A stretch of 64,000 nt of DNA from contig CAYJVY010000007.1 in NCBI GenBank assembly GCA_964373795.1, positions 21,385-85,384 of the forward strand. The letters run 5' to 3'. Below the pieces are notes generated by a model. The model was not told the origin of the DNA. It saw only the letters and a program-made list of their open reading frames with translations, and did no database searches. The DNA is from an uncultured archaeon. Its GTDB lineage: Archaea > Iainarchaeota > Iainarchaeia > Iainarchaeales > DATDZZ01. Made by a program: the position numbers and the translations under genes. This document shows positions 34,467-64,000 of this stretch, piece after piece (position 1 is the stretch's first letter; every line of letters starts with the position of its first letter).

Positions 34467-35424
34467 TTACTTTTTCTCTCCAGTAATTCAGTAAGTCTTT
34501 TAATGTCTGCTCAAATGGGATTTCTGGTTTCCAGCCTGTTTGTTTTATGAATTTAGTTGAATCACATAAAAGTAATGGCACATCACTTGGACGCATTCTT
34601 GAAGGATCTTTAACTATTTCGATTTTTATCTTTGTTAACTTTAAAAGCATTTGTTGTAGTTCCTTCATTGAATAAGCTTTTCCTGTTCCAATATTATATT
34701 CTTCTCCTGGAACCCCTTTTTCTGCAGCTAAATAATATGCTTTAACAATGTCTCTTACGTCAGTGAAATCTCTTCTTGCATCTAAGTTTCCACAGAATAA
34801 TTTTGGTTCTCTTTTTTTTGCTTCAATTTCAGCTATTTGTTTACACCAATTGCTTGCAACATATACTTGTCCTCTTCTAGGCCCTGTGTGATTGAATGCT
34901 CTTGTTCTAACTATTTTTAATCCATAGCTTTTAAAGTATTGATATCCAAATAAATCTGTTGCAACCTTGCTTACTCCGTAAGGACTTAAAGGTCTTAAAG
35001 GATTTGATTCTTTTATTGGAACCTCATTTTCTAAAACTAATCCATATTCTTCACTTGATCCAGCTAAATGAATTTGTGGATTTAATTCTAGTCTTCTTAA
35101 TGCTTCAAGCAAGTTAACTGTTCCAAAAATATTTGAATTAATTGTTTCGTGTGGAGCAAGCCAAGACTTTGGAACAAATGCTTGAGCAGCTAAATGAAAA
35201 ACATAATCTGGTTGAGATTGTTTTAATGAATCCAAAACAGTATTTTGATCAGTTAAATCACATTCAAATAATTTTACTTTATCTAAAATATGTTTAATGT
35301 TGTCTAGTTTTGCATTATATGTTCTAATAGTTCCATGTACTTCTCCTAATTTGTTACTCAAAATATAATCAGCTAAATGGCTTCCTGCAAAGCCTGTAAT
35401 GCCAGTAATAAAAAATTTCTTCAT
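34456..35424 (-). CDS. GDP-mannose 4,6-dehydratase / reductase family SDR (paralog 2)
   Basis: Motifs ITGITGFAGSHL, YGVSKVATD, and RAFNHTGPRRG (the Gmd NHxGPRRG signature). Confidence 0.7.
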   Translation of the reverse strand: MKKFFITGITGFAGSHLADYILSNKLGEVHGTIRTYNAKLDNIKHILDKVKLFECDLTDQNTVLDSLKQSQPDYVFHLAAQAFVPKSWLAPHETINSNIFGTVNLLEALRRLELNPQIHLAGSSEEYGLVLENEVPIKESNPLRPLSPYGVSKVATDLFGYQYFKSYGLKIVRTRAFNHTGPRRGQVYVASNWCKQIAEIEAKKREPKLFCGNLDARRDFTDVRDIVKAYYLAAEKGVPGEEYNIGTGKAYSMKELQQMLLKLTKIKIEIVKDPSRMRPSDVPLLLCDSTKFIKQTGWKPEIPFEQTLKDLLNYWREKVNAK

Positions 35425-42977: not shown

Positions 42978-43683
42978 ATGTTAGTGAAAGAAAAACCTTT
43001 TGCAGTTATTATTCCAACCTATAATGAAGCAAATAATGTTGGTAAATTGATTTCTTTAATTTTTCAACAAAAAATAAACGTTAGATTAATTGTAGTGGAT
43101 GATGATTCTCCTGATTTAACTTGGAAAATTGTAAGAAAATTGAATGATAGAAAAATAAAAGTTGTGAGAAGAATTAATGAAAAAGGAGTCGGCAGAGCAA
43201 TTTTAGACGGAATTAAAAAATCTAAGGGAGGGTTAATTCTTTGGATGGATTGTGATTTTGGCATGCGTTCTAAATATATTCCAAAGATGCTGAAAGAAAT
43301 AAAATATTAGGATATTGTAGTTGGTTCCAGATATGTTAAAGGTGGAATGGATAATAGAGATTTTATTAGAAAATTATCTAGTTATATAATAAATTTTTTA
43401 GCAAACATTGTTTTGGAACTTATGGTTTTAGATTATACCACTGGTTTTGTTTTAGCAAAAAAACAGGTTTTTAAAAATGTTTCTTTTGATTCGGCTGGAC
43501 ATGGAGAATATTGTATTGAATTTTTATACAAAGCAAAAAAACAAGGTTTTAAGTTGAAAGAAATTCTTTATGATTAATGAAAGAAGGGTAGGACAGTCCA
43601 AAACAACTAGATATATTTTTTCAATATTTCTACATACATTCAATTATATCAAAAGAATCATCAAAATAAGATTTAACCTTTAA
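42978..43683 (+). pseudogene. disrupted GT2 polyprenyl-phosphate glycosyltransferase (DPM1-like)
   Basis: FAVIIPTYNE…VVDDDSPD…ILWMDCDF, then an in-frame TAG at 43308-43310 directly before the conserved DIVVGSRY. The gene continues to …KEILYD, then the conserved ERRVGQSK block is in the +1 frame (43579 onward), with a stop at 43681. Confidence 0.55.
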
Positions 43684-43710
43684 TGGCGTTTAAAATCTTT
43701 ATACTGGAGG

Positions 43711-44363
43711 TTAGTGGGAAATATATCCCACAGCAATTGCATTGGCACAAGAATATGGCGCAGAATATTTTAAATTTTGAATATCCTCCAGTGTAACTTC
43801 TTTCCAAATGTTCCAATGGGAAATTCTTTTTAAGTAATATTGTGAGGTGAATCCAATTCTTTTATTCTTAATAGCGACATCAAGATTTGGGTTATATCCA
43901 AGTGGAATTGTTACAAAAATTTTTCCACGCTTTTTTAAATGTTTTTTTAACTTTTTTATTGCTCTAAAAATTTTTTTTGGTTCTTTTGGAGTTTCATCAA
44001 ATCCAATATGTTCTAAAGTGGAAACACTAATTATTAAATCATATTTTTTTTAGGCTTGAAATTAACTATGTCTTCGTTAATTACTCCTTCAGCTTTTTCA
44101 TATTTATCAACAATGTCATGTTTAAATGGAAAATATTGTGATAAAACATTACCAACTTCTAAAATATTGCCTTTTTGGCAAGAATGAATCTCACTTAATG
44201 CAAGTGGGATTTCTACAGCTCTTTCATTTCTCCACACCATATTAAGCCAATTACAACAGTACTTATATTTTTTATTCCTAAAAATAAAACTAGGGCCAAT
44301 GATTTTATATAAGAAAAAAAAAGATCTAAGAATTAAATATTTAATATTTAAAAATAATGTCAT
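43711..44363 (-). pseudogene. frameshifted class I SAM-dependent methyltransferase-like gene
   Basis: The upstream ORF (44034..44363) ends …FKPKKNMI*. The downstream frame (…LIISVSTLEHIGFDE…) joins it if the A8 tract (T8 at 44044-44051 on the plus strand) were A9. Confidence 0.45.
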
Positions 44364-44640
44364 ACTTTTAATTAGATTATTAAATATTTAAAAATGTAGT
44401 CACGATTTCTTGTAAAAAAGTGTTTCCTATTTGTAAACAATAGATATGTTTCTTTAGAAGAAGGATTAAAGAAGTTAATTAAAGAAAGAAATTTTTGATG
44501 ACCGTCTTACTGAAGATTGTATGTGAAGCAATTACAGAGAATATAGTAAAAAATGGGATTTAATCGAAAACTGGTTCATTTCGTTATTACTTAAATTTAA
44601 AATACTTTCAAAGAAATAATCATTCTATTAAGTGGTTTGA

Positions 44641-48789: not shown

Positions 48790-48792
48790 TTC

Positions 48793-50007
48793 TTAAACTA
48801 TTTCTGGAAAAGGAATTGGAATAATAAATTTTCCTTTAAATCCTTTTTCTTTGAGTTTTGGAATAATTATATGTTTAATATTCCAAGCCAAAAGTAAAGC
48901 ATATTCAGGTTGGTCTTCAAATAACTGTTTTTCGTCTATTACTTTAATATGCATTCCAGGACTATATTTTCCTATTTTTAATTCATTTCTTTCACAAAGA
49001 TAATCTAAAATAAATGGCCCTATTTTGCAAAAATTTAGTAAAGTATTTCCTTTTGCTGGAGCGCCTATTCCTACAATTTTTTTGCCTTTTGATTTTAAAT
49101 CATTTACTATGTCTAACAATTTTTGTCTGTTTTCTACAACTTTTTGCCCAAATTTTGTAAAAGTTTCTTTTGTATACAATCCTGCTTTTTCCTCTTCCAT
49201 TAATGTTTTTGAAACATTTTCAATTATTTTGTATGCATTTTTTTTGCAAGCATATACTCTTAGCGAACCTCCATGAGTATCAACTCTTTTAACGTCAAAA
49301 ACATCCAAGCCATATTTATTGAACAAATAAATTAATGGTTTTAATGAATAATACCTTAAATGTTCTGCATAAATTGAGTCGTATTCCATTTCATGAATTA
49401 AATCCAATAAATAATGGGATTCTTCAATGAATACTCCGTCATTTGTTAATAGTAATTTTATTCCTTTCATTAAAGAATCTAGTTCTCTTACATGAGCGAA
49501 AACATTTGTTGCAGTTATAATTTTTGCTTTACCATTTTCTTTTAAAATTTTTTTTGCAGTTTCTTCATTAAAAAATTCAGGTAAAGTTGGAATTCCTTTT
49601 TTTACAGCTATTTTTGCTGCTTCGGATGGATCAACTCCTAATATTTTTATTTTATCAGGTAAATAAGCTTCTAATAGGGTTCCATCGTTTGAACCAATAT
49701 CTATAACAAAGTCTTTTGATGAAAGATTAAATCTTGGAATTGCTTCTTTAACTAGTGCATGAAAATTGTCTTTTAAGTTTTTGTTTTCTCCAGTAAGATA
49801 TACAAAGCTATCAGTGAATAGAATTTTTGGGTCAACTGCATAACCTGTTTGAACTAGTTTACATTTTTCACAAAAAAACAAGTCTAATGGATAATGTGTT
49901 TCAGGTTTTATTAATTCTTCTTTGCTTAAAAATTTATCACTTGGAGGTTGATGCCCTAAAGATAGTACTTTAATTAAGTTTTCGTTTTCACAAACTTGGC
50001 ATTTCAT
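48793..50007 (-). CDS. NDP-hexose C-methyltransferase (TylCIII/NovU-like; Zn-ribbon + class I MTase + C-MT C-terminal domain)
   Basis: CQVCENEN…CEKCKLVQ zinc ribbon, a SAM-binding VIDIGSNDG, and the C-terminal domain FKGKFIIPIPFPEIV. Confidence 0.75.
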   Translation of the reverse strand: MKCQVCENENLIKVLSLGHQPPSDKFLSKEELIKPETHYPLDLFFCEKCKLVQTGYAVDPKILFTDSFVYLTGENKNLKDNFHALVKEAIPRFNLSSKDFVIDIGSNDGTLLEAYLPDKIKILGVDPSEAAKIAVKKGIPTLPEFFNEETAKKILKENGKAKIITATNVFAHVRELDSLMKGIKLLLTNDGVFIEESHYLLDLIHEMEYDSIYAEHLRYYSLKPLIYLFNKYGLDVFDVKRVDTHGGSLRVYACKKNAYKIIENVSKTLMEEEKAGLYTKETFTKFGQKVVENRQKLLDIVNDLKSKGKKIVGIGAPAKGNTLLNFCKIGPFILDYLCERNELKIGKYSPGMHIKVIDEKQLFEDQPEYALLLAWNIKHIIIPKLKEKGFKGKFIIPIPFPEIV

Positions 50008-50009
50008 TT

Positions 50010-51002
50010 TTATTTCCCCTTTTTATTAAAGTATTTTTCATACCATTTAAAAGTTTTTCCAAGTCCTTCATCTAAATTTGTTTTTGGTTTAAAACCTAAA
50101 TCTACAAGCCTTGATATATCTGGGCATCTTCTTGAAACACTTCCTTTTGGAGCTGGATGAATGTCTATTTCTGGATTTACGTTTGCAATTGTGAAAATTT
50201 TTTTTGCTAAATTCATTATTTTGATTTCTTCATCACTTCTTCCAATGTGAATTGTTTGAGCAGTTGTTTTAGGGCTTTCCATTACAATTTGTGTTGCTTC
50301 AATTGCGTCATCAATGAAGCAAAAAGTTCTAGTTTCTTGCCCTCCAAATATTTTGAATGGATTTTCTTTTTTCACTATTCGTTCAATAAATTGAGGAATT
50401 ACATGTTCTTCCCCCATTCGCGGACCATAAATATTGTGATATCTGATAATGCAAAAATTCATTTTATGCAAATGGTGGTAACAATTTAATGTTACTTCAT
50501 TCATTATTTTGCTTGCGCCGTATGACCATCTAACATTTGATGGATTATCAATGCAGAGGGGAACGTTTTCTGGAGTTGGAATTGGGAATTTTTTTCCTAA
50601 AATCTTTAAAGTTCCTGCATAGGTTTCAGAACTTGAAGAAAACAATATTTTTCCGTGCTTTGATTTAACAAACCAATCCAATAAATTGATTGTTCCAATT
50701 ACTCCTACTTTAATTACTTTGTCTGGAATTTTGTAAAAATTTTCAGTTCCATTAATTGCAGCTAAATGGTAAACAAAATCATATTTTTTTTCTAATTTTG
50801 AAAATTCATTTGCATTAGTAATATCCATTTTAATGAAATCAGTGTTTTTGTTTTCTAAGAGTTGTTTAAACTCTTTATCTTTTTTTCCTCTAGCAAAATT
50901 ATCCATTATGGTTACATGGTATTTTTCTGCTAATTTTTTGGATAAATGAAATCCAATAAATCCTGCTCCGCCTGTAACTAAAACAGTTTTTAATGTATTC
51001 AT
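50010..51002 (-). CDS. NAD-dependent sugar epimerase/dehydratase (extended SDR)
   Basis: [23 protein letters not shown]. Its first 17 codons plus about 55 bp of upstream sequence are nearly identical to those of the rmlB gene at 63337. Confidence 0.75.
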   Translation of the reverse strand: MNTLKTVLVTGGAGFIGFHLSKKLAEKYHVTIMDNFARGKKDKEFKQLLENKNTDFIKMDITNANEFSKLEKKYDFVYHLAAINGTENFYKIPDKVIKVGVIGTINLLDWFVKSKHGKILFSSSSETYAGTLKILGKKFPIPTPENVPLCIDNPSNVRWSYGASKIMNEVTLNCYHHLHKMNFCIIRYHNIYGPRMGEEHVIPQFIERIVKKENPFKIFGGQETRTFCFIDDAIEATQIVMESPKTTAQTIHIGRSDEEIKIMNLAKKIFTIANVNPEIDIHPAPKGSVSRRCPDISRLVDLGFKPKTNLDEGLGKTFKWYEKYFNKKGK

Positions 51003-51057
51003 GTTATTATTTAACTAGAAGTTAAAGTTTTTATATCCTAGTAATACAAACTTGTAA
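50953..51057 (-). repeat. promoter + 5'-CDS cassette; inverted copy of 63281..63387
   Basis: About 105 bp at roughly 93% identity, covering the upstream region and codons 1-17 ([17 protein letters not shown]). Compared by eye. Confidence 0.6.
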
Positions 51058-51168
51058 TACTTGTTTTAAGTAATTGTTTGAGTTTTTGTACTAATAAACC
51101 TTTTTAAAGTTTTATTGAATTAACTGTACTATTAAATTTTAATTAAAAATAATTAATAAATAAAAAAA

Positions 51169-53352: not shown

Positions 53353-53405
53353 TTTGAATTCAAATAGTATTTTAAAGTTTTTTAAGCACAGTCTTGGTTG
53401 TTGTT

Positions 53406-54665
53406 ATGAGCAAATTTTTTGAAGTAAAGGAATGCAGAATTTGTAATTCAACTAATTTGAAAAAATATTTGGATTTAGGTGAAATGCCTTTAGCAAATGC
53501 ATTGGTTGATCTTTCAAGTAAAGAAAAAGACTTGTTTTTTCCATTGCAGTTATTGTTTTGCAAGAATTGCTTTTTGACTCAATTAAGTGTAGTTGTAAAT
53601 CCTGAAATATTGTTTTCAAATTATCCTTATCAAACATCTATTTCGAGTACTTTTCAAAAGCATTTTTTTGAAATGTCTAAAGAGGTTGCAAAACTTTTTC
53701 CCAAAAAAAATGAATGCCTTGTATTAGATATTGCAAGCAACGATGGCTGTTTATTAGAGCAATTCAAAAAAACTGGTTTCAAAGTTTTAGGAGTTGAACC
53801 CGCAAAAAATTTAGCCAAAATTGCTGAAGAAAAAGGAATTCCAACTATTCCCGAGTTTTGGAATGAGGGCGTAAGAGAAAAAATTATTTCAAATTATGGC
53901 AAGCCACTGGTTGTAACTGCTACAAATGTTTTTGCACATGTTCACGATGTTAAATCTTTTGCTGAAAATGTTAAAGAGGTTTTAACAACTGATGGAGTTT
54001 TTATTCTTGAATTTCCTTATGCATTAAATTTGTTTGAGAAAACAGAGTTTGATACAATTTATCATGAACATTTATCTTATTTTTTAGTTCATCCTTTAAT
54101 TACTTTGTTTAATGGCCTTGAAATGCAGGTATTTAATATTCAAGAAATTCCAATTCACGGAGGAAGTATTAGAGTTTTTGTTAAAAAATCTGAAAATAAA
54201 AAAATTAAAGTGAATGAAAAAGTAATTAACGAGTTTTTGGAAAGAGAAAAAAAGCATGGCCTGAATGAATTTAAATCATATGCTTCTTTTGCAGTAAAAG
54301 TTGGAAAAGTAAAAAAAGCTTTCACTAATTTGTTGAATAAATTAAAAGGTGAAAAAAAATTTGTTGCAGGTTTTGCAGCTGCAGCCAAAGCAAGTACTTT
54401 AATGCATTATTGTAAAGTTGGAAAAGAGCATATTAGGTTTATTATTGATGACGCTCCATTTAAACAAAACAAGGCTTTTTCAGGAAATCGAGTTCCAATT
54501 TATTCAAGGGCAAGGCTTGCTGATAACCCGGATTATTTGATCCTGTTTGCTTGGACTATTGCTGGAGAATTGATTAAAAAAACTAGAGAGCGAGGATTTA
54601 AAGGCAAATTTATTATTCCAATTCCTTTTCCAAGAATTATTTTGAGTGAATCTGAATTGCTTTGA
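53406..54665 (+). CDS. NDP-hexose C-methyltransferase (TylCIII-like), paralog 2
   Basis: CRICNSTN…CKNCFLTQ, VLDIASNDG, and a C-terminal FKGKFIIPIPFPRII. About 35-40% identical to ORF 48793. The ORF track starts at TTG 53394; the ATG is at 53406. Confidence 0.75.
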   Translation: MSKFFEVKECRICNSTNLKKYLDLGEMPLANALVDLSSKEKDLFFPLQLLFCKNCFLTQLSVVVNPEILFSNYPYQTSISSTFQKHFFEMSKEVAKLFPKKNECLVLDIASNDGCLLEQFKKTGFKVLGVEPAKNLAKIAEEKGIPTIPEFWNEGVREKIISNYGKPLVVTATNVFAHVHDVKSFAENVKEVLTTDGVFILEFPYALNLFEKTEFDTIYHEHLSYFLVHPLITLFNGLEMQVFNIQEIPIHGGSIRVFVKKSENKKIKVNEKVINEFLEREKKHGLNEFKSYASFAVKVGKVKKAFTNLLNKLKGEKKFVAGFAAAAKASTLMHYCKVGKEHIRFIIDDAPFKQNKAFSGNRVPIYSRARLADNPDYLILFAWTIAGELIKKTRERGFKGKFIIPIPFPRIILSESELL

Positions 54666-54679: not shown

Positions 54680-56140
54680 CTAGGTTTTTTGAAGTGTCTC
54701 ATTCCCACTAAGTTTAATTAAGACATATTCCTTTATTTTTTTTATATAATGCAAAATTATTTTAGGGTCTTTAAATACTATTTTTAATTTATGTCTTATT
54801 AATTTGGGTGTTGCAGAAAAAGTTATTTCCACTGGAAGTTTAGTATTATATTGTTCAACTTCTTTTCTAGTAAAATTGGTTCCAACAAGTCCTGTTTTTT
54901 CCAAAGCTTCTTCATAAGAATCTCCTTTTAGAGTGCCTTCTTTTATTCCTTCTTCCCAAAGAGCGGTTCCAGGAATGGGTGTTGCAGAAGCCATACTAAT
55001 TGACACGGGTTTTACTTTTTTGAAAAAATTCAATGTTTTTTGTAGTGTTTGAGTTGTTTCACCAGGTAAAAGGCTTATGGAAAATAAATGTAGTATAATG
55101 TCATACTTTTTTCCTAAAGCAATTGCTTTTTCAACACTTTCTAATTTTCCATGTTTATTAGCTCTATCAAGAATTTCTTGTGCTGCAGATTCAAAACCCA
55201 CTCCAATCCACATGCATCTCGATCTTTTTAATGCATCCATTATTTCATCGTTCAGGAACTCACTTCTAGTTTGAATTATGTAAGTTAAGTTTGGAAATTT
55301 TTTCTCAAGATAGTCACAAATTTTTAAAGTTCTTGTTTTATTTAGTGTAAAAATTTCATCTGAAAATGCAAAACTTTTCAAACCTTTTTTACTAAGATAT
55401 TCAATTTCTTTAAAAACATCTTCAAGATTTCTTTCCCTATATTTTTTGTTTAATATTTTTGAAGAACAATAATTGCAACTATAAACGCATCCTCTTGTAG
55501 AAACTATTTGAAAAAGATCTCCTGAATTTGTTGAAAAATATTTTTCCACAGGAAGAATTGAATAATCGGCTGCCATAATTTGTTGCATGTCTGGAAGTTC
55601 TTGTGAGGGGTTTCTGACAAATTCATTCCCTCTAAAAAACGAAATTCCCTTTACTTCTTTCAAGTCATTAAAATTTTTTACTATATTAAGAAAAACGATT
55701 TCTGGTTCTCCTTGTATTGCAATGTCTGCGCCAGTTTCTCTTAAAGTTTTCTCAGGAAAAATAGTTCCATGAGGACCTGAAACAACAAATTTTGTCTTAA
55801 CTCCATTTTCTTTGAGTGTGCTTAAAATCTCCTTAACATGATTTGTAAATGGAATATTACATCTTGCAGAAATCCATACTTCAGTAGGAATTAAAATTAT
55901 GTCCGGATTGAAGTCTTTGACCATTTCTATTATTTCAATATTTGAAAGTTTTTGAATAGTTGGATCTAAAGCCAATATATCATTAAATCCAGACTTCTTC
56001 AATAAAGCACTAATATGGAAAAACTCATTTGGACATTTAGGAGCTGTATTTATTATCATTGCAGTATTCCTTGAAAGCGCTATCTGTGATTTTGAAAATG
56101 AGCTTAAAGCAACTCGTGGGTTTAATAAAAGAATTTTCAT
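54680..56140 (-). CDS. B12-binding domain radical SAM protein
   Basis: CxxxCxxC at RGCVYSCNYCSS, with an N-terminal cobalamin-binding-like domain (MKILLLNP…). The ORF-track extension to 56335 is low-complexity and probably untranslated. Confidence 0.7.
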   Translation of the reverse strand: MKILLLNPRVALSSFSKSQIALSRNTAMIINTAPKCPNEFFHISALLKKSGFNDILALDPTIQKLSNIEIIEMVKDFNPDIILIPTEVWISARCNIPFTNHVKEILSTLKENGVKTKFVVSGPHGTIFPEKTLRETGADIAIQGEPEIVFLNIVKNFNDLKEVKGISFFRGNEFVRNPSQELPDMQQIMAADYSILPVEKYFSTNSGDLFQIVSTRGCVYSCNYCSSKILNKKYRERNLEDVFKEIEYLSKKGLKSFAFSDEIFTLNKTRTLKICDYLEKKFPNLTYIIQTRSEFLNDEIMDALKRSRCMWIGVGFESAAQEILDRANKHGKLESVEKAIALGKKYDIILHLFSISLLPGETTQTLQKTLNFFKKVKPVSISMASATPIPGTALWEEGIKEGTLKGDSYEEALEKTGLVGTNFTRKEVEQYNTKLPVEITFSATPKLIRHKLKIVFKDPKIILHYIKKIKEYVLIKLSGNETLQKT

Positions 56141-56503
56141 TAAAAAACTCCAAATGATATTTGACTTTGATTTAAATTTGTTGTATGAAAATATACTTCT
56201 TATTAAATAATTTGAATTATATTTATTGTATCTTAAAAAGTATTTAAACCTTTCTTTAGGTTGATGCTTTGTTTTATCCCAACTTAGGTTCCCTATATTT
56301 TTAACTATTACGTGGCCATCAAAACAAGAGTTCATAATTCATAAACAAGCGGCAAACTAGAACGCTGGTTTGGGACTGCAAAAAAACTCAAAAAACATTT
56401 TGGCAGAGGGAACATTAATTCAGAACAATACAAGAGCAGTGTTGAACCAAAACACTTAAAAACATTAAAAAAATACATATTTAAGAAAAACTTTTTGATT
56501 TTC

Positions 56504-57391
56504 ATGGCGGAACGCGGAAAACTAGTTTCAATTATTTTAATTAATTGGAATAACTATGACATGACTAAAAACTGCATTAAATCGATTAAGCAAAACACTG
56601 ATTATTCTAATTATGAAATTTATTTGATTGATAATGGTTCAACTGATGGAAGTTTTGAAAAATTGAAAAAAGAATTCAAGGATTTGAAGACAATTGTGAA
56701 TTCTCGTAATAAGGGATTTGCTTATGCCTTAAATCAAGGCTATAAAACTGCTAAAGGATTTTATTTATCCCATATCAATAACGATGCAATTGTTTTAAAT
56801 GGATGGCTTTCAGCTGCAATTAAAGTGCTTGAATCAAATTCAAAAATTGCTATTGCAGGCTTTAGAGAAGTATCTTTAGAACAATCAAAGAATGCTGAAG
56901 AATTGAAAAAAATTCGGGAAGAGCCAGACATTGAAAAAATGACTTTGCCTGTTGGATGGGTTACTAAAAAGAAAATGATTCAAAAAATTGGTTACTTGGA
57001 TGCTGAGTTTTTTTCTCCAATTTATGGAGAAGAAGCTGACTGGAATTTTAGGGCGAGAAACATGGGTTATAAAATTGTTCGCGTAAGTAAAGCAAACGTA
57101 GTGCATTTTAGTTCAGTTGATACTAAAAAACATTTAGGTTACTCTAAATACCTTGTTTTAATTAATTATCACAGATTAAGAGCAATGTTATTTAATTTGT
57201 CTTTACTTGATTTGCTTAGATTTGTTCCGGGACTTGGATTAATTTTATTTAATTCTGTTTGGCAGGGAACACTTATTCCATTGCTTAAATCTTATTGGCT
57301 AAATTTAATGGATTGGAAATTAATTTTAAAGCAAAGAAAATTTAAAAGAAGGTTTATTCCTTTTAAGGACGAAAAGTTTACAGTAATTTAA
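56504..57391 (+). CDS. glycosyltransferase family 2
   Basis: LVSIILINWNN…YLIDNGSTDGS and a DxD-like NNDAIV. Confidence 0.7.
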   Translation: MAERGKLVSIILINWNNYDMTKNCIKSIKQNTDYSNYEIYLIDNGSTDGSFEKLKKEFKDLKTIVNSRNKGFAYALNQGYKTAKGFYLSHINNDAIVLNGWLSAAIKVLESNSKIAIAGFREVSLEQSKNAEELKKIREEPDIEKMTLPVGWVTKKKMIQKIGYLDAEFFSPIYGEEADWNFRARNMGYKIVRVSKANVVHFSSVDTKKHLGYSKYLVLINYHRLRAMLFNLSLLDLLRFVPGLGLILFNSVWQGTLIPLLKSYWLNLMDWKLILKQRKFKRRFIPFKDEKFTVI

Positions 57392-57430
57392 TATACTTAT
57401 GGATGAATAAATTATTTACGAGGATAGGAA

Positions 57431-58492
57431 ATGTTTCAATCAAAACAAGCCTTAATAGCAAAAACCCTTGAGAGAGGGGGTTTGGCTGGATTAACTAATT
57501 TAGCTTTAAGGTATTATGAAAGAAATAATCAACCAGACAAACCTCATTTTGTTCCAACTGCTTTGCAAATAGAAGTTACAACTGCTTGTAACTTGAAGTG
57601 CACAATGTGTGAGCATACTTACATGCAGGAAGTTGGAGGACACTTTGGTTTTAAGGAGTTCAAAAAATTATTGGATGACAATCCCACAATTCAAGTAATT
57701 AATTTAACTGGAATTGGAGAAGCTTTAATGAATCCAGAATTTTTGGAAATGGTTGAATATGCTAAAAAGAAAGGAATTTATGTATGGTTTTCAGATAATT
57801 TTACTTTAATGATTGAAAAAAACATTCAAAAAATTATAGATGTAGGGGTTGACTTTGTAGTTATTTCTTTGGATGGAACAACAAAAGAAGTGTTTGAAAA
57901 AATAAGGGTTGCAGCGAACTTTGAAAAAGTAATAGGGAATTTAAAAAATTTAATTAAAATGAGAAATGAGAGAGGATTAAAAACTCCTTTAATTGGAATT
58001 AACATGGTTGTAATGAATGAAAACTATCACCAAATTGCTGACATGGTTAAACTTGCAAATGAACTTGGAGTAGATAAATTAATGTTTATAACAATTGTTT
58101 TATCTGATACAACTGGAAATTTATCTTTGTGGAGTGTGCCCAAAGACAAACTTCAAGCAGAAGTTGAAAAAGCAAAAAAAGCTGCTGAAGGAACAAGTAT
58201 ACAAGTAATTAGTTGGCCAAATGTTTCACCTGAAAGAAAAAAAGAAACAGGTTGCGACTATCCTTGGAGTAATCCCTACATTACATATAATGGAGATGTA
58301 GTTCCTTGTTGTTTTATTCCACAACAAACAGGTGCTCGTACAAATTCAGAAAATCTTATGGGAAACATTTTGAAAGAAGACTTGAAAAAAATTTGGGTAA
58401 ACGAAAAATACGAAGAATTTAGAAAAAAAATTAAATCTAAAGATCCTCCAACTTCTTGTAAGTCTTGCCCGAAATTTTATGGACAAATTTAA
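57431..58492 (+). CDS. radical SAM enzyme with C-terminal SPASM/twitch Cys-rich domain
   Basis: TTACNLKCTMCEH (CxxxCxxC) and a C-terminal GCDYPW…VPCCFIP…SCKSCPKFY. Confidence 0.7.
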   Translation: MFQSKQALIAKTLERGGLAGLTNLALRYYERNNQPDKPHFVPTALQIEVTTACNLKCTMCEHTYMQEVGGHFGFKEFKKLLDDNPTIQVINLTGIGEALMNPEFLEMVEYAKKKGIYVWFSDNFTLMIEKNIQKIIDVGVDFVVISLDGTTKEVFEKIRVAANFEKVIGNLKNLIKMRNERGLKTPLIGINMVVMNENYHQIADMVKLANELGVDKLMFITIVLSDTTGNLSLWSVPKDKLQAEVEKAKKAAEGTSIQVISWPNVSPERKKETGCDYPWSNPYITYNGDVVPCCFIPQQTGARTNSENLMGNILKEDLKKIWVNEKYEEFRKKIKSKDPPTSCKSCPKFYGQI

Positions 58493-58507
58493 TTTCACGC
58501 GATCTAC

Positions 58508-59623
58508 ATGAAAATTTTATATATTACTTCTGTTTTAGGAAATATTGGTGGAAGCGAGATTTATACTAGAGATTTAATTAAGGAGCTTGCAAAAAGAGGC
58601 CATGAAATTTTTGTTGTAACAAATGCTGTTTTTCAATTTCCCGAAAAAAATGTTTCAGTTTTTAAGATTCCAATTTTTGGACATCATGCTTTTCACAAAT
58701 TTCAAATGCCTTTATCATATTTTAAAATTTTGGAAAAAGTGAAAGAGTTTCAGCCTGACATAATTCAATGTCATAGTAATTCTTTAATGGGTTTGATTGG
58801 GCATATTCTTAAAAAAAAATTTCAAATCCCAATGTTTTTATTAATTGAATCAGTTAGCGATAAGAACGCCAACATTCACACTGAATTAATTTTTCGAGTT
58901 GAAAAATTTTTAATGCCAAAACTTAATTACAATAAATTAATTGTGTGGACTGAAAACATTAAAAATAAGTTTTGCATTCCTTGGGGAATTTCTGAAAAAA
59001 AGATTAAAGTAATTCCCGCAGCACTAAATTTAAATGAGTATCCCTTAAATGCAGATAAAAAAGCACTTCAAAAAAAACACGGAAAGCATTTAATTATTTC
59101 AATTAAATCTTTATGGGGAACTAATACTGAAGGATTGAAAACCATTGTTGAAGCCATGAAATTTGTTCATGAAAAACATCCTGAATATAAATATTTAATT
59201 TTTGGGTGGGGGCCAGGAAGAAAAGATTTAGAAGAACTAGCTGAAAAACTTGGCTTGCGAGATTGTGTACAATTAATGGGTGCATTTGAAAAAAATGAAA
59301 AAAATAGTATTTTTTCAGCTGCAGAAATAACTCCTCATTCACTTGTTTATGAAGTTGCAACCTCAATTTCTTTGCTTGAATGCATGGCTTTTGGAAAAGC
59401 TTGTGTAGTAACAGATATTGGTGCAATTAAAGATGTAGTAAAAGATACAGCTATTTTAGTAAAGCAAAACAATCCCAAATCAATGAGTGAAGGAATAATT
59501 AAATTAATTGAAAATACTGCATTAAGAAAAAAACTTGAAAAGAAGGCAAGAAAATTAGTTGAAAAAAAATATTCTATTCAAAGCACGGTAAATGAATTAG
59601 AAAAACTGTACTATGATGTTTGA
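58508..59623 (+). CDS. glycosyltransferase family 4
   Basis: MKILYITS…GGSEIY N-domain and a C-terminal E…CMAFGKACVVTDIG. Confidence 0.7.
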   Translation: MKILYITSVLGNIGGSEIYTRDLIKELAKRGHEIFVVTNAVFQFPEKNVSVFKIPIFGHHAFHKFQMPLSYFKILEKVKEFQPDIIQCHSNSLMGLIGHILKKKFQIPMFLLIESVSDKNANIHTELIFRVEKFLMPKLNYNKLIVWTENIKNKFCIPWGISEKKIKVIPAALNLNEYPLNADKKALQKKHGKHLIISIKSLWGTNTEGLKTIVEAMKFVHEKHPEYKYLIFGWGPGRKDLEELAEKLGLRDCVQLMGAFEKNEKNSIFSAAEITPHSLVYEVATSISLLECMAFGKACVVTDIGAIKDVVKDTAILVKQNNPKSMSEGIIKLIENTALRKKLEKKARKLVEKKYSIQSTVNELEKLYYDV

Positions 59624-60762
59624 GTATAAATTATATTATATTTGGGGATAATGTGCATTTTTGTATTTTGGCGGAATATTCAGCAGCTAAATATTTAGAG
59701 GGAACTAATAGAATAGTTTTTGAAGTTTCAAAAACATTAGTAGAAAAAGGACACAAAGTAACTGTATTGTCACCTGCATGGAATAAAAAGTCAAACCCTT
59801 TGGATATTGATCCGTGGAAGAAAGAAGGAATTATTGTTAAGCCTTTTGAAGGTTTTTTCTTACACAATCCTTTTTTTCGGATTTTTTTTTATATTTTAGC
59901 TGGATTAAAGTCAAGTCCTACTAATTTTGATGTTTTTTTTGGAGTTTATACAGCGCCGCCTGCAATTGCCGCAATTGTTTTAGGAAGTTTATTTAGAAAG
60001 AAAAAATTTGTTGGTTTGTGGGAACCAAATACTATTGAAAAACTTAAAAACAATCCTTTTTTTAGGTTTTTTATTAAAAAAGCAGACAGAATTCAGACGT
60101 TAAGTGATTATGTAAAAAATTTAATTTCTAAATCTTTTTCATATCCAAGCAAAAAGATTTATTCAATTAAAGGATTTGTTGATACTGAAAAATTTTATCC
60201 AGAGGCAATGGATAGAAATTTAGTTAAAAAATTTGATTTGAAAAACAAATTTGTTATCTTAAGTGTTGGGAGAGTCTCAAAATTAAAAGGGAGCGATACT
60301 TTGATTAAAGCAGTAGCCAAAATAAACGATCATTCCATTAAATTATTTTTTGTAGGAAGACCAACTCCAGATTTTGATTCAAAGAAATTAGTTAAAGAGT
60401 TAGGCATTGAAAAAAATGTCGTTTTTATTGGTTTTAAAAAACATGATTTTTTGCCTCCTTATTATAATTTATGTAATTTGTTTTCTTTACCATCTTTAAG
60501 TGAAGGGTTTGGATTAGTTGTTGCAGAAGCGCTAGCTTGTGCTAAACCTGTAATTGTCAGTGACCATGGACCTTTGCCAGAGGTTGTATCAAATGCAGGA
60601 TTTGTTGTGCCAGTTAATGATGTTGATAAATTAGCTCAGGCAATACTTAAAATTAAAAATAATTCAAATATTTTGAATTTGCAAAAAAAAGCATTAATAA
60701 GGTCAAAAGCTTTTACTCTAGAAAATGCAATGAATAGATATTTAAACTTTTTAACAAAATAA
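59620..60762 (+). CDS. glycosyltransferase family 4
   Basis: PSLSEGFGLVVAEALACAKPVIVSD, the GT4 signature. The start codon is uncertain; the ORF track uses a TTG that overlaps the upstream stop. Confidence 0.7.
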   Translation: MSINYIIFGDNVHFCILAEYSAAKYLEGTNRIVFEVSKTLVEKGHKVTVLSPAWNKKSNPLDIDPWKKEGIIVKPFEGFFLHNPFFRIFFYILAGLKSSPTNFDVFFGVYTAPPAIAAIVLGSLFRKKKFVGLWEPNTIEKLKNNPFFRFFIKKADRIQTLSDYVKNLISKSFSYPSKKIYSIKGFVDTEKFYPEAMDRNLVKKFDLKNKFVILSVGRVSKLKGSDTLIKAVAKINDHSIKLFFVGRPTPDFDSKKLVKELGIEKNVVFIGFKKHDFLPPYYNLCNLFSLPSLSEGFGLVVAEALACAKPVIVSDHGPLPEVVSNAGFVVPVNDVDKLAQAILKIKNNSNILNLQKKALIRSKAFTLENAMNRYLNFLTK

Positions 60763-60813
60763 TTTCTAATAACTCAAATTAATTTATATTAATATTTAAT
60801 TTTGGTGATAAAA

Positions 60814-61872
60814 ATGAGTGAAAAAAAAGCTTTACTTACTGGTGGTGCAGGATTTATTGGAACAAATGCTGCCAATTATTTTTTGAAAAAGGGGTGGGAA
60901 ATAACTATATTAGATAACTTTTCTAGAAGGGGCACAAGAGAAAATGCTAATTGGTTAAAAAATCTTTTTCCAGAAAAACTTAAAATAGTTGAAGCAGATA
61001 TTGTTACAAATTTTAATGTGTTAAAAAGTAAAGTTAAAGAAAGTGATTTAATTATTCATTTAGCTGGACAGGTTGCTGTAACTACTTCTATTTTAAATCC
61101 GAGAGACGATTTTAAAGTGAATGCCTTAGGAACATTTAATGTTTTAGAAGCTTTAAGAAAAACAGATTCAGATGCTACATTAGTCTATCCCTCGACCAAT
61201 AAAGTTTATGGAAAAATGCAACAACTTGAAGTTCAAGAAAAAGAAACGCGCTATATATATAAAGATTATTCTAGTGGAATTCCCGAATCAATGCAGTTAG
61301 ATTTTTTTTCCCCTTATGGATGTTCTAAAGGAACTGGGGATCAATATGTGCGAGATTATGAAAGAATTTATGGTTTAAATACCGTTGTATTTAGACAAAG
61401 CTGTATTTATGGTGAAAGGCAATTTGGAATTGAAGACCAGGGATGGATTGCATGGTTTGTTATTTCCTCAATATTAGGCAAGCAAATTCATATTTATGGA
61501 AATGGAAAACAAGTTAGAGATGTATTATATGTAAATGATTTAATTGAAGCATATGAATTGGCACATCAAAAAATTAGTTTTTGTAGAGGACAGATTTTCA
61601 ATATTGGAGGAGGAACAGACAGATCAATGAGTTTATTAGAGTTACTTAGTTTTTTGGAAGAACTTGTTGGGAGAAAAATGAATTATATTTTTGAAGATCA
61701 ACGACCCGGAGATCAATTAATTTATATTAGTGATATTTCTAAAGTTCACGATAAGCTTGGTTGGACTCCTAAAACAAGTGTAAATGAAGGTGTGAAAAAA
61801 TTAGTTGATTGGGTTTTTGAAAACCAAAAGTTAGTGAAAACTGTTTTAGCAGATTTATTGAAAAAAGTTTAA
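60814..61872 (+). CDS. NAD-dependent epimerase, CDP-paratose 2-epimerase-like
   Basis: [17 protein letters not shown]…ILDNFSRRGTRENANWL, YGCSKGTGDQY. Confidence 0.65.
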   Translation: MSEKKALLTGGAGFIGTNAANYFLKKGWEITILDNFSRRGTRENANWLKNLFPEKLKIVEADIVTNFNVLKSKVKESDLIIHLAGQVAVTTSILNPRDDFKVNALGTFNVLEALRKTDSDATLVYPSTNKVYGKMQQLEVQEKETRYIYKDYSSGIPESMQLDFFSPYGCSKGTGDQYVRDYERIYGLNTVVFRQSCIYGERQFGIEDQGWIAWFVISSILGKQIHIYGNGKQVRDVLYVNDLIEAYELAHQKISFCRGQIFNIGGGTDRSMSLLELLSFLEELVGRKMNYIFEDQRPGDQLIYISDISKVHDKLGWTPKTSVNEGVKKLVDWVFENQKLVKTVLADLLKKV

Positions 61873-61938
61873 AGTAATGATCATTTTTTATGAGGGCATT
61901 ACTCAATTTTAAAAACTTTACTAGAATCTATTAAGTAC

Positions 61939-62325
61939 GTGGGCAGAACTTTTCTTATTACGGGTGGTGCAGGATTTATTGGTTCGAATTATGTTGAATT
62001 TCATTTAAATAAATATCCTGAAGATGAGGTAATTGTTTTGGATAAATTAACTTATGCTGGTAGAAAAGAAAATTTAAAAGAATTTGAGTCAAACTCAAAT
62101 TTTGAATTTGTTAAAGGAGACATTTGTAATAAAAAATTGGTTGAAAAACTGGTTAAAGATGTTGATGTTGTAATTAATTTTGCTGCTGAAACTATGACAA
62201 TATGCAACAAGAATCATACTTCAAAACACAACTATGCAACCAACTACTCTAACTACAAACCAGTTAAGCCAACATGCTCAACAAAACCACAAGTTATGCA
62301 ACAGAGCATCACTCCTCGCCGATGA
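61939..62325 (+). pseudogene. 5' fragment of dTDP-glucose 4,6-dehydratase (rmlB) duplicate
   Basis: Codons 11-85 (61969-62193) are nucleotide-identical to the intact rmlB at 63373-63597. After that the reading frame runs into unrelated C/A-rich sequence. Confidence 0.55.
61969..62193 (+). repeat. 225-bp perfect direct repeat, copy 1
   Basis: Identical to 63373..63597, an offset of 1404 bp. Compared by eye. Confidence 0.7.
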
Positions 62326-62452
62326 ATTAATTTTTTAATCCTTTCTATGCAAACTTTGTGATTAGGTTATGGTGGAGAAGAAAAGAATAATGAAAAAATG
62401 GCGAATCTTTCTTGAAACCATTTTTAAATGTAGAAAAAACAGAGTTGTTTAA

Positions 62453-63127
62453 ATGAAAACCAATCAAACATTTGAAAGCAAAGATCTTAAGGAGCAAAAA
62501 GAATATGCAGAACATTATGAGGAATTTTCAGAACTGGAACTATTTAATATAAAAATTCTTAAAAAAATAGCCAAACACCTAAAAGAGCCCATACTTGATG
62601 TTGGTTGTTTTACTGGGAGGAAAGCAGCGTTTTTTTATGAAAATGGGTATAAGGATATTTCTGGATGTGATATTTCAAATAACTCCATCAAACAAGCAAA
62701 AAAATCATACCCCTTCATAAACTTCTTCCAACATGATATGGTAAAAAGTTCAACAAGTGAAAAATACAATTCAGTAATCTGCTTTCAAACAATTGAGCAC
62801 ATTTTTAACTATCATAGATTCTTAAAAAATATTGTTGGTTCATTGAACAATGGAGGAGTGGCGGTTATTGAAACGCCCAATGCGTGCAGCATAATTACTA
62901 GAGCAAGGCTACTACTTGGTGATGCTAGGAATTTTACAGGAAACATTGATGAGTCACATATAAGGTTTTTCAGTAAGACCTGTCTAGAGAAAGCAATGGA
63001 AAAACAAGGGATGACTATTGTTCAGTCGTTTGGCTACAATATTAGGCCAATTGTCAAACCAATTGAGTTTATTTCTTCAACTAGTTGGAAAGAAGTGCTT
63101 GTTGTAATTGCAAAAAAACAACTCTAA
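62453..63127 (+). CDS. class I SAM-dependent methyltransferase
   Basis: ILDVGCFTGRKAAFF (motif I), GCDIS (post-I), and VICFQTIEHI (motif II/III). Its codon usage is more C-rich than that of neighbouring genes. Confidence 0.7.
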   Translation: MKTNQTFESKDLKEQKEYAEHYEEFSELELFNIKILKKIAKHLKEPILDVGCFTGRKAAFFYENGYKDISGCDISNNSIKQAKKSYPFINFFQHDMVKSSTSEKYNSVICFQTIEHIFNYHRFLKNIVGSLNNGGVAVIETPNACSIITRARLLLGDARNFTGNIDESHIRFFSKTCLEKAMEKQGMTIVQSFGYNIRPIVKPIEFISSTSWKEVLVVIAKKQL

Positions 63128-63280
63128 AAAACTCACAAATTTTTTTTATGCTGATTTAGGCGTCCCAGTCTAGAAAAATTGTGAAACTCCTGTTGTAATT
63201 AAAATCTAGATTTATATTACCAAATAAAACTTTAAAGAGGTTATTAGTACAAAAACTCAAATTATTTCCCCCAACTTATG

Positions 63281-63387
63281 TTGCAAATTTGTATTACTAG
63301 GATATAAAAACTTTAACTCACTAGTTAAATAATAATATGAATACATTAAAAACTGTTTTAGTTACAGGGGGAGCAGGATTTATTGGT
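63281..63387 (+). repeat. promoter + 5'-CDS cassette; inverted copy of 50953..51057
   Basis: See the paired repeat feature at 50953..51057. Confidence 0.6.
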
Positions 63388-64000
63388 TCGAATTATGTTG
63401 AATTTCATTTAAATAAATATCCTGAAGATGAGGTAATTGTTTTGGATAAATTAACTTATGCTGGTAGAAAAGAAAATTTAAAAGAATTTGAGTCAAACTC
63501 AAATTTTGAATTTGTTAAAGGAGACATTTGTAATAAAAAATTGGTTGAAAAACTGGTTAAAGATGTTGATGTTGTAATTAATTTTGCTGCTGAAACTCAT
63601 GTTGATAGATCAATTCAAGGACAAGCAGAGTTTCTTGAAACAAATATTATTGGAACTTACAATTTATTGGAAGCCTCACGAAATTCAAGTGTTAAAAAAT
63701 TTTTGCAGATTTCAACTGACGAAGTTTATGGTTCGGTGGAAAAAGGTTCTAGCTTAGAAACGGATGAATTAAAGCCTCGAAATCCTTATTCTGCTTCAAA
63801 AGCAGCAGCTGATAGGTTTGCTTATTCTTATTTTGCAACTTATGGATTGCCTGTTTTAATTACTCGTGCTTCAAATAATTATGGTCCAAAACAATTTCCG
63901 GAAAAGGTTTTACCTTTGTTTATTACAAATTTGTTAAAAGGAAAAAAAGTTCCATTGTATGGTGATGGAAAAAATGTTCGAGACTGGCTTTACGTGGAAG
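63337..64000 (+). CDS. rmlB: dTDP-glucose 4,6-dehydratase (partial, runs off the window end)
   Basis: [23 protein letters not shown]…DKLTYAGRKENL…ETHVDRSI…YSASKAAADRF…GDGKNVRDWLYVE. Confidence 0.8.
   Translation, partial: MNTLKTVLVTGGAGFIGSNYVEFHLNKYPEDEVIVLDKLTYAGRKENLKEFESNSNFEFVKGDICNKKLVEKLVKDVDVVINFAAETHVDRSIQGQAEFLETNIIGTYNLLEASRNSSVKKFLQISTDEVYGSVEKGSSLETDELKPRNPYSASKAAADRFAYSYFATYGLPVLITRASNNYGPKQFPEKVLPLFITNLLKGKKVPLYGDGKNVRDWLYVE
63373..63597 (+). repeat. 225-bp perfect direct repeat, copy 2 (inside intact rmlB)
   Basis: Identical to 61969..62193. Confidence 0.7.

What the first reader, a model, noticed from the sequence alone, without database searches (positions are those of the whole stretch)
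61939..63600. 225-bp perfect direct repeat duplicating the 5' part of rmlB around a compositionally foreign methyltransferase cassette
Positions 61969-62193 are base-for-base identical to 63373-63597 (rmlB codons ~11-85). The upstream copy is a dead 5' fragment that reads into a C/A-rich, non-native-looking stretch (62194-62330). A class I SAM methyltransferase with visibly more C-rich codon usage follows at 62453..63127. The intact rmlB starts after it.

This looks like a recent insertion or gene conversion that carried a partial rmlB copy. It is a candidate horizontally acquired sugar-modifying methyltransferase and a recombination hotspot.
Basis: seen in the sequence. Interest (0 to 1): 0.6.

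Follow-up and report, generated by a model that had tools for sequence, protein, structure and literature searches.

The report
Recombination scar duplicating rmlB's start
In the sugar-coat gene cluster of what looks like a small uncultured archaeon, a rare methyltransferase gene sits between two identical 225-base copies of the start of the rmlB gene, which is an ordinary though neatly readable scar of a recent DNA insertion.

Summary
Positions 61969-62193 and 63373-63597 are identical over 225 bp. The upstream copy is a dead RmlB stub (ORF 61939-62325) that runs into a C/A-rich stretch. A class I methyltransferase gene (62453-63127) follows, and an intact rmlB starts at 63337.

Three findings are new.
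1. The intact rmlB is a mosaic. Its promoter region and first 16 codons (63223-63386) match, at 88%, the 5' end of another SDR gene at 50953-51116 on the minus strand.
2. Both homology boundaries fall on one 14-mer, GCAGGATTTATTGG. It encodes the Rossmann motif AGFIG and occurs at the 5' end of six SDR genes in the window.
3. The methyltransferase has the highest GC3 of 51 genes (z = +3.7). It has almost no close relatives. Its closest one (67% identity) lies next to a tyrosine recombinase, and more distant ones lie in glycan clusters.

Two independent Logan assemblies support the structure. One spans the stub/CA-rich junction. The other ends exactly 30 nt into the repeat.

Best reading: a recent recombinational insertion, joined by microhomology on the right and without homology on the left. 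It duplicated 225 bp and gave rmlB a new promoter. This is a known kind of event in surface-glycan loci, so interest is low to moderate.

The parts
61884..61938 (+). Upstream region of the stub. It holds a T6 run after the stop of the preceding epimerase gene (61884-61889) and a TATA-like element, TAAAAACTTTA, at 61910-61920, 18 nt before the GTG start.
   Evidence: Sequence read. Motif hits. Positions relative to start codons.
61939..62325 (+). Stub ORF of 128 aa. Residues 1-85 are an RmlB N-terminal Rossmann segment. A 43-residue tail is read from the C/A-rich stretch. The catalytic TDE and YxxxK regions are absent.
   Evidence: TIGR01181 positions 2-84 only. Exactly this product is encoded on Logan contig L001.
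61969..62193 (+). Copy 1 of the exact 225-bp direct repeat. It begins with the 14-mer GCAGGATTTATTGG.
62194..62330 (+). C/A-rich stretch of unknown origin (C 27.7%, A 43%). It contains TATGCAAC three times. It ends at the TGA at 62323-62325 and is followed by a T6 run at 62331-62336.
   Evidence: No Rfam match. No unusual RNA fold (z = 0.27). No similarity to SDR or RmlB proteins or to any fetched locus.
62453..63127 (+). Class I SAM-dependent methyltransferase gene (224 aa). It has its own TATA-like box (62421-62429) and a T8 run after the stop codon (63140-63147).
63223..63386 (+). Promoter plus 5' module of the intact rmlB. It is 88% identical, in inverted orientation, to 51116-50953. It includes the TATA-like TAAAAACTTTA at 63305-63315 and codons 1-16 ([17 protein letters not shown]), where 49 of 50 coding nt are identical.
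63337..64000 (+). Intact rmlB (dTDP-glucose 4,6-dehydratase). It runs off the window end. The full product is P0003, 323 aa.
   Evidence: TIGR01181, 319.5 bits for the 221 residues inside the window..
63373..63597 (+). Copy 2 of the exact 225-bp direct repeat (codons 13-87 of rmlB).
50953..51116 (-). Homologous promoter plus 5' module of a different SDR gene (50010-51002, minus strand). Homology to rmlB ends at the same 14-mer.

Best explanation
This is a real and recent recombination scar inside the surface-glycan gene cluster of a low-GC genome that is probably a DPANN-type archaeon.

**What was joined in.** A segment of about 1.18 kb was joined into the resident rmlB gene. It consists of a C/A-rich remnant, a rare methyltransferase gene with its own promoter and terminator, and the promoter and first 16 codons of an SDR gene of the type found at 51 kb.

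**The two junctions.** The right-hand junction formed at a 14-nt sequence (GCAGGATTTATTGG, encoding AGFIG of the Rossmann motif) that all SDR genes of the cluster share. The left-hand junction formed without homology, after codon 85 of the resident gene.

**The result.** The right junction lies 225 bp upstream of the left one in rmlB coordinates, so those 225 bp now stand on both sides of the insert.
- Upstream is a promoter-bearing dead stub.
- In the middle is a new methyltransferase that probably modifies a glycan sugar.
- Downstream is a complete rmlB that now has a swapped promoter and N-terminus.

**Shown.** The repeat, the two junctions, the mosaic 5' end, the shared 14-mer, the atypical composition, the stub's lack of catalytic parts, and independent assembly support for the left junction.

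**Inferred.** The order of events, that the stub holds the native 5' end, the physical mechanism (a template switch or one-ended homology capture, or single-crossover integration of a circle), the foreign origin of the segment, and the substrate of the methyltransferase.
For: - The repeat is exact over 225 bp and has sharp edges.
- In the 27 nt of coding sequence just left of the repeat the two copies differ at 8 positions, most of them synonymous or conservative. They then differ at 0 of 225. That pattern is a recombination breakpoint, not decay.
- The intact gene's 63223-63386 matches the 51-kb SDR's upstream region and first 16 codons at 88%. That homology ends at the 14-mer where the 225-bp repeat begins.
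- The 14-mer occurs 6 times in the window, against 0.05 expected, always at an SDR 5' end.
- The stub matches RmlB only over model positions 2-84.
- The methyltransferase's GC3 is at z = +3.7, the highest of 51 genes. The C/A-rich stretch is in the top 0.15% for strand composition.
- The methyltransferase family is very small: 6 hits at E <= 1e-30 among 1.84 billion representatives.
- The closest relative (67% identity, L088/L085) is convergent with a tyrosine recombinase. In another relative (L083) an SDR gene follows 5 nt after the point where a frameshift-corrected methyltransferase reading frame would end (its called ORF stops at 529). Others lie in glycan clusters.
- Logan contig L001, from run ERR4904392, is 100% identical to 61353-62326 and spans the stub, the repeat and the junction into the C/A-rich stretch.
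- Logan contig L002, from run ERR3478686, is 100% identical to 55087-61998. It ends exactly 30 nt into the repeat, as expected for a branch in a k = 31 assembly graph. That Logan uses k = 31 is my own knowledge.
- The T of TGGxGFIG is at position 8 in the stub and in the three closest RmlB relatives, but at position 10 in the intact copy and in the 51-kb SDR. This is weak support that the stub holds the native 5' end.
Against: - No related genome with an empty site, and no donor arrangement, was found. The nearest RmlB is 81% identical, and both genome-collection scans gave nothing close.
- Read depth and spanning reads could not be examined.
- The direction of transfer between rmlB and the 51-kb SDR cannot be decided. 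One RmlB relative (P0011) starts MNTMK, like the intact copy, which weakens the argument from N-terminal length.
- The origin of the C/A-rich stretch is unknown.
- No recombinase or transposase was found among the window ORFs that were scanned.
- The methyltransferase's relatives lie in glycan clusters, so it could be an old resident of this cluster rather than an arrival.
Confidence: 0.6

Rival explanations
1. The methyltransferase is resident, the stub is an old truncated SDR or rmlB paralogue, and a recent patch repair made the copies identical. In this view a recent gene conversion or synthesis-dependent repair started at the shared 14-mer. It copied 225 bp from the downstream rmlB into the stub and ended by non-homologous joining. 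Nothing was inserted.
For: - Divergence changes sharply from about 30% to 0% exactly at the 14-mer.
- The stub keeps its own promoter-like element and start codon.
- The cluster contains other decayed genes, such as the GT2 gene broken into three ORFs at 42978-43683.
- The methyltransferase's relatives normally live in glycan clusters.
Against: - The sequence after the stub (62194-62452) shows no trace of an SDR gene at the protein or DNA level. Its composition is far from that of a decayed local gene.
- The methyltransferase is the GC3 outlier of the window.
- The intact rmlB carries a borrowed 5' module next to the methyltransferase. This model needs a second, separate event to explain that.
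Confidence: 0.17
2. It is an assembly artefact or a mixture of strains. The two 5' versions of rmlB would belong to different co-existing strains, or a repeat was mis-resolved, and the assembler threaded them into one contig.
For: - The source is a metagenome-assembled contig. The identical methyltransferase and RmlB proteins are on record only once, on a 95,590-bp NCBI contig.
- A 225-bp exact repeat is longer than assembly k-mers and close to read length.
- Reads could not be checked.
- L001 passes through the repeat without a branch, so in that run the other entry and exit were not seen.
Against: - The stub/C/A-rich junction shares no k-mer with the intact gene, so a graph mis-join cannot create it. 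It recurs at 100% identity in an independent assembly of another run.
- From that junction the sequence is unique all the way to the second copy. The only linear path that uses all edges is the one in the window. The alternative is an uninterrupted gene plus a free 1.4-kb circle.
- No uninterrupted variant of RmlB is in the protein collection. The P0003 cluster has one member.
- L002 breaks exactly at the repeat edge, which shows that both entries to the repeat are present in that run.
Confidence: 0.13
3. It is a reversible cassette. The two identical 225-bp repeats would serve as a recombinational on/off switch. Loop-out would remove the methyltransferase as a 1404-bp circle and rebuild an in-frame rmlB under the stub's promoter. 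Re-integration would restore the gene. Cells in a population would then differ in glycan methylation.
For: - The stub keeps a TATA-like element at the usual distance, a start codon and the correct frame. Deletion between the repeats would therefore give a complete rmlB.
- The repeats are identical and only 1179 bp apart.
- The structure is what single-crossover integration of a circle leaves behind.
Against: There is no evidence of either alternative state. No uninterrupted variant and no circle junction was found in the collections searched. Any recent duplication has this property without having been selected for it.
Confidence: 0.07

Closest known systems
Campbell-type (single-crossover) integration of a circular DNA that carries an internal or 5' gene fragment
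   Same: The insert is flanked by direct repeats of part of the target gene. The promoter-proximal copy is 3'-truncated. The distal copy is complete and is preceded by sequence from the incoming DNA. The arrangement can in principle be reversed by recombination between the repeats.
   Different: No circular donor, replicon or recombinase is visible. The left edge of the repeat coincides with a 14-nt motif shared by several paralogues. That fits a microhomology-primed join (template switch or one-ended capture) at least as well as classical homologous integration.
Mosaic surface-polysaccharide and glycosylation gene clusters shaped by horizontal transfer and recombination. Examples from my own knowledge are bacterial O-antigen and capsule loci, where rml genes often mark recombination boundaries. 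Archaeal S-layer glycosylation clusters that vary between species are another example (Haloferax comparison, PMC5867893, abstract seen).
   Same: It is a sugar-nucleotide and glycosyltransferase cluster with many paralogous SDR genes, gene remnants, a compositionally atypical modifying enzyme, and a junction in rmlB.
   Different: The host is probably a DPANN-type archaeon. The junction can be read to the base. Part of the target gene was duplicated by the event, so this is not a simple replacement.
Transposon or insertion-sequence insertion with target-site duplication
   Same: An insert sits between direct repeats of target sequence.
   Different: The repeats are 225 bp, far longer than target-site duplications. 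There are no terminal inverted repeats and no transposase.

Membership tests
RmlB, dTDP-glucose 4,6-dehydratase (NCBIfam TIGR01181) - intact copy, 63337 onward | Full-length match to the equivalog model at or above its cut-off of 365.1 bits | tested here: inconclusive
   The 221 residues inside the window score 319.5 bits over model positions 2-221 of 321. The full 323-aa product P0003 was retrieved but not re-scored. RmlB is by far the best family.
RmlB, dTDP-glucose 4,6-dehydratase (NCBIfam TIGR01181) - intact copy, 63337 onward | N-terminal GxxGxxG NAD-binding motif together with the catalytic TDE and YxxxK motifs of extended SDR dehydratases (the motifs are from established knowledge of the family) | tested here: met
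   P0003 reads [17 protein letters not shown] and PYSASKAAAD.
RmlB - upstream stub, 61939-62325 | Presence of the catalytic and substrate-binding parts of the enzyme | tested here: not met
   Only model positions 2-84 of 321 are matched, at 101 bits against a cut-off of 365. The tail after residue 85 is unrelated to RmlB. It is a gene fragment, not an RmlB.
Class I SAM-dependent methyltransferase (Pfam PF13489, Methyltransf_23) | Domain match above the gathering score, and a Rossmann-like methyltransferase fold with the glycine-rich SAM motif | tested here: met
   PF13489 scores 73.3 bits against a cut-off of 27. The motif LDVGCFTG is conserved in relatives. The AlphaFold model has pLDDT 80.7, and its top Foldseek matches are all class I methyltransferases.
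Sugar or glycan O-methyltransferase (a functional class) | Demonstrated or family-specific assignment of a sugar substrate | not testable with these tools
   No NCBIfam equivalog reaches its cut-off. The structural matches are generic. The only support is gene neighbourhood, here and in relatives.
Campbell-type integration product | Direct repeats of a target-gene segment flank the insert, with the upstream copy 3'-truncated and the downstream copy complete behind a foreign 5' flank | tested here: met
Campbell-type integration product | A circular donor molecule that carries the homologous segment | not testable with these tools
   No donor was found in the viral, genome or metagenome collections.
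Transposon or IS insertion | Transposase gene, terminal inverted repeats, and a short target-site duplication | tested here: not met
   No inverted repeats bound the insert. There is no transposase or integrase domain in the ORFs scanned. The repeat is 225 bp.
Integrase-borne integrative element | A tyrosine or serine recombinase adjacent to the cargo, with attachment-site repeats | tested here: not met
   There is none in the window. The closest relative of the methyltransferase does lie next to a tyrosine recombinase in another organism. That is a lead, not a membership.

The most novel reading that the evidence does not exclude
The 14-nt Rossmann-motif sequence shared by the cluster's SDR genes acts as a recurrent crossover site. 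It would let promoter-plus-5' modules and adjacent modifying genes be swapped between SDR genes. The present arrangement would then be a reversible cassette: loop-out between the 225-bp repeats removes the methyltransferase and rebuilds rmlB under the stub's promoter. That would give cell-to-cell variation in glycan methylation in a DPANN archaeon.
Probability: 0.08. Interest if true: 0.6.

Novelty: new member of a known kind. Interest (0 to 1): 0.27.

Why it matters
If the reading is right, this is a base-resolution example of how a surface-glycan cluster in a probable DPANN-type archaeon gains a modifying enzyme without losing an essential pathway gene. The join uses a short motif common to all SDR paralogues, and the target gene is rebuilt behind a borrowed promoter.

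It adds one concrete case to the general picture that cell-surface glycosylation loci are mosaics. It also flags a very rare methyltransferase subfamily that seems to travel between such loci.

It does not open a new question. The identical repeats also warn annotators and assemblers that the 128-aa 'SDR' ORF is a remnant, not a gene.

Tried and rejected
- **RNA gene or structured element in the C/A-rich stretch.** No Rfam hit even at E <= 1, and folding is no better than shuffles. Rejected.
- **C/A-rich stretch as the decayed rest of an SDR or rmlB gene.** blastx against 122 RmlB relatives and the window's SDRs gave nothing below E = 2.8. Not supported.
- **Tandem duplication of a 1404-bp unit.** The sequences before the two copies share only an 11-mer (about 4% of shuffles do as well), and the sequences after them are unrelated. 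Rejected.
- **Transposon insertion.** No inverted repeats and no transposase. Rejected.
- **Search for the donor or an empty site.**
  - Exact look-ups of the methyltransferase and of the full RmlB found no contig.
  - Genome-collection scans gave no methyltransferase relative, and RmlB at 67% identity or less.
  - Viral scans were empty.
  - The metagenome scan gave only one close methyltransferase (L088).
  - Searching all 166 fetched loci with the spacer sequences gave nothing.
- **Conserved gene module shared with the glycan clusters that hold methyltransferase relatives.** Only generic 25-36% similarities between glycosyltransferases, and the radical SAM genes are not related. Rejected.
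- **Substrate of the methyltransferase from sequence or fold.** Only generic class I matches.
- **Paper search for the run accession.** Found nothing.
Full report
**1.
A direct comparison shows that 61969-62193 and 63373-63597 are identical over exactly 225 bp, and identity ends at both sides. The repeat finder and a self-BLAST of the whole window agree (E = 9e-119).

The upstream copy lies in an ORF of 128 aa (61939-62325, GTG start). Its first 85 residues match the RmlB model TIGR01181 over positions 2-84 only. The remaining 43 residues are read from 62194-62330, which is C 27.7% and A 43% in a window of 28.9% G+C. That puts the stretch in the top 0.15% of 137-nt windows for single-strand C or G content.

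The methyltransferase ORF is at 62453-63127 (PF13489, 73 bits). The intact gene starts at ATG 63337 and runs off the window. Its 221 in-window residues score 319.5 bits on TIGR01181. The full 323-aa product, P0003, carries the TDE and YxxxK motifs. In the intact gene the repeat covers codons 13-87.

**2. Setting.**
Positions 29.8-64 kb form one large sugar-nucleotide and glycan cluster. It contains:
- nucleotidyltransferases;
- UDP-glucose dehydrogenases;
- a phosphomutase;
- an RmlD and an RmlC-like cupin;
- two C-methyltransferases;
- two radical SAM enzymes;
- GT2 and GT4 glycosyltransferases;
- at least eight SDR genes.

The organism is most likely a DPANN-type archaeon, for four reasons:
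- There is a geranylgeranyl-reductase-like flavoprotein, a TrmB regulator and FlaJ-like proteins.
- The best RmlB matches are in Iainarchaeota/Diapherotrites, Nanoarchaeia, Woesearchaeota and Micrarchaeota MAGs, alongside many bacteria.
- Many first genes have a TATA-like box 18-30 nt before the start codon and no Shine-Dalgarno sequence.
- Genes inside operons have GGTGA-type sites.

**3. The intact rmlB is a mosaic.**
Self-BLAST shows that 63223-63386 matches 51116-50953 in inverted orientation at 88%. The segment 63223-63386 is 114 nt of upstream sequence plus the first 50 nt of coding sequence. The segment at 51 kb is the upstream region and first 16 codons of a different SDR gene (50010-51002, minus strand). 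Both proteins start [17 protein letters not shown], and 49 of the 50 coding nt are identical.

This homology ends at GCAGGATTTATTGG (63373-63386). The 225-bp repeat begins at the first base of that same 14-mer. The 14-mer, which encodes AGFIG, occurs exactly six times in the window against 0.05 expected. Each occurrence is at the 5' end of an SDR gene. So both 5'-end exchanges that can be seen involving rmlB have their breakpoint in one short sequence common to the paralogues.

**4. The left edge is a breakpoint, not decay.**
In the 27 nt before the repeat the two copies differ at 8 positions. Five are synonymous-type and three give conservative changes (K/R, V/F, V/I). After that they differ at 0 of 225 positions.

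Further upstream they share only the 11-mer TAAAAACTTTA. That 11-mer, with at most one mismatch, lies 18-21 nt before the start codons of five sugar-pathway genes, including both rmlB copies. About 0.13 such placements would be expected from 30 hits and 51 starts (my estimate). It is probably a promoter element. The stub therefore keeps a promoter-like element, a start codon and the right frame.

**5. The right edge is abrupt.**
The two copies read GAAACT|ATGACAATATGC and GAAACT|CATGTTGATAGA. The C/A-rich stretch beyond the edge has no Rfam match and no unusual fold. It shows no similarity to SDR proteins, to viral contigs or to any fetched locus. It ends with a stop codon and a T6 run, so it may be the 3' end of a gene from the donor. 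Its origin is unknown.

**6. The methyltransferase.**
- **Composition.** GC3 is 0.284 against a mean of 0.179 and sd of 0.029 for 51 genes, the highest value in the window.
- **Rarity.** The word-indexed search of 5.8 billion proteins found only the protein itself and one 46% relative. A full HMMER scan of 1.84 billion representatives found six hits at E <= 1e-30, the best at 49% identity.
- **Closest relative.** A JGI contig, L088, encodes a 67% identical protein and overlaps Logan contig L085 at 100%. There the gene is convergent with a tyrosine recombinase that has a zinc ribbon, in DNA of 36-39% G+C.
- **Other relatives.** In L083 the methyltransferase ORF is broken by a frameshift, and an SDR gene follows 5 nt after the point where the repaired frame would end. 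Relatives at 34-44% identity sit in GT4-MT-deacetylase-GT2-rSAM-GT2 clusters, one of which has STT3.
- **Substrate.** Sequence and fold searches give only generic class I methyltransferases. A glycan or sugar substrate is inferred from context alone.

**7. Is the structure real?**
Logan contig L001 (run ERR4904392, 974 bp) is 100% identical to 61353-62326. It spans the stub, the whole repeat and the junction into the C/A-rich stretch. That junction shares no k-mer with the intact gene, so it cannot be a graph mis-join.

Logan contig L002 (run ERR3478686, 6912 bp) is 100% identical to 55087-61998. It ends exactly 30 nt into the repeat. A k = 31 graph does this at a node with two predecessors. 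That Logan uses k = 31 is my own knowledge.

From the junction to the second copy the sequence is unique. The window's order is therefore the only linear path through the graph. The alternative is an uninterrupted gene plus a free 1.4-kb circle. No uninterrupted RmlB variant is in the protein collection. Read depth and spanning reads could not be checked.

**8. Best explanation.**
The segment [C/A-rich remnant - methyltransferase - promoter and first 16 codons of a 51-kb-type SDR] was joined into the resident rmlB. The right end joined at the 14-mer. The left end joined without homology after codon 85. The 225 bp between the two points was copied to both sides.

Two mechanisms would give this structure in one event:
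- a double template switch, or capture of a fragment at a break in which one end primes synthesis on a sister copy;
- single-crossover integration of a circle that already carried the rmlB 5' segment.

One weak argument suggests the stub holds the native 5' end. The T of TGGxGFIG is at position 8 in the stub and in the three closest RmlB relatives. It is at position 10 in the intact copy and in the 51-kb SDR, and only 3 of 117 homologues have it there. However, one relative, P0011, starts MNTMK.

**9. Rivals.**
- An old paralogue patched by gene conversion. This fits the sharp change in divergence. It does not explain the foreign composition, the lack of any SDR trace after the stub, or the borrowed 5' module.
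- An assembly artefact or strain mixture. The independent junction and the graph argument speak against it.
- A selected reversible switch. It is allowed by the structure but has no direct support.

**10. Comparison and verdict.**
The structure has the anatomy of a Campbell-type integration product, and it fits the known mosaic nature of surface-glycan loci. Variation of archaeal glycosylation clusters between Haloferax species is described in PMC5867893 (abstract seen). It is not a transposon insertion.

It is a new example of a known kind of event. The breakpoints are unusually legible, and the cargo is a rare methyltransferase. Interest is low to moderate.

Noticed in passing
window 63223-63386 and 50953-51116 (inverted): A 165-bp module, made of the upstream region and first 16 codons, is shared at 88% between rmlB and an unrelated SDR gene. 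The coding part is 49/50 identical and both proteins start [17 protein letters not shown]. This implies an earlier promoter/5'-end exchange between paralogues.
   Followed up: yes
window 42070, 50953(-), 53303(-), 60847, 61969, 63373: The 14-mer GCAGGATTTATTGG (AGFIG of the Rossmann motif) is present exactly at the 5' end of six SDR genes or fragments (0.05 expected by chance). It is a dispersed microhomology that coincides with both recombination boundaries.
   Followed up: yes
window 40653, 51023(-), 53373(-), 61910, 63305: TAAAAACTTTA, with at most one mismatch, lies 18-21 nt upstream of the start codons of five sugar-pathway genes. Many other first genes have TTTAAA-type boxes at 20-30 nt and no Shine-Dalgarno sequence. 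This is the pattern of archaeal TATA promoters with leaderless mRNAs, and perhaps a shared regulatory element of the glycan genes.
   Followed up: partly
window 42978-43683, and 43700-44640: A GT2 glycosyltransferase is split into three consecutive ORFs in different frames (42978-43310, 43347-43577, 43570-43683). It is followed by about 1 kb with only short ORFs and low G+C. This is either a decayed gene region or sequencing frameshifts.
   Followed up: partly
window 32096-33058 and 34456-35424 (both minus strand): Two GDP-mannose-4,6-dehydratase-like paralogues are about 74% identical at the DNA level over about 375 bp. They are separated by a mannose-1-phosphate guanylyltransferase-like gene.
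   Followed up: no
window 48792-48844 and 54593-54646 (inverted): The 3' ends of the two C-methyltransferase genes (48793-50007 minus strand, 53394-54665 plus strand) share 54 nt at 91% identity. The shared region encodes RERGFKGKFIIPIPFP. They are paralogues with a conserved C-terminus, or there was another local exchange.
   Followed up: no
window 62201, 62233, 62295: The 8-mer TATGCAAC occurs three times within the 137-nt C/A-rich stretch. The whole window has 6 copies on both strands, against about 2 expected. Its meaning is unknown.
   Followed up: partly
L088 1-1067 and L085 1-1437 (they overlap at 100%): The closest relative of the methyltransferase (67% identity) is convergent with a tyrosine recombinase gene of about 317 aa that has a C-terminal zinc ribbon. 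It sits in DNA of 36-39% G+C. No tRNA gene is on these short contigs.
   Followed up: partly
window 21678-21750: The only tRNA in the window is tRNA-Gln(CTG). A mechanically listed ORF (21705-22505, HAD hydrolase, GTG start) overlaps its 3' half, so the real start of that gene is probably further downstream.
   Followed up: no
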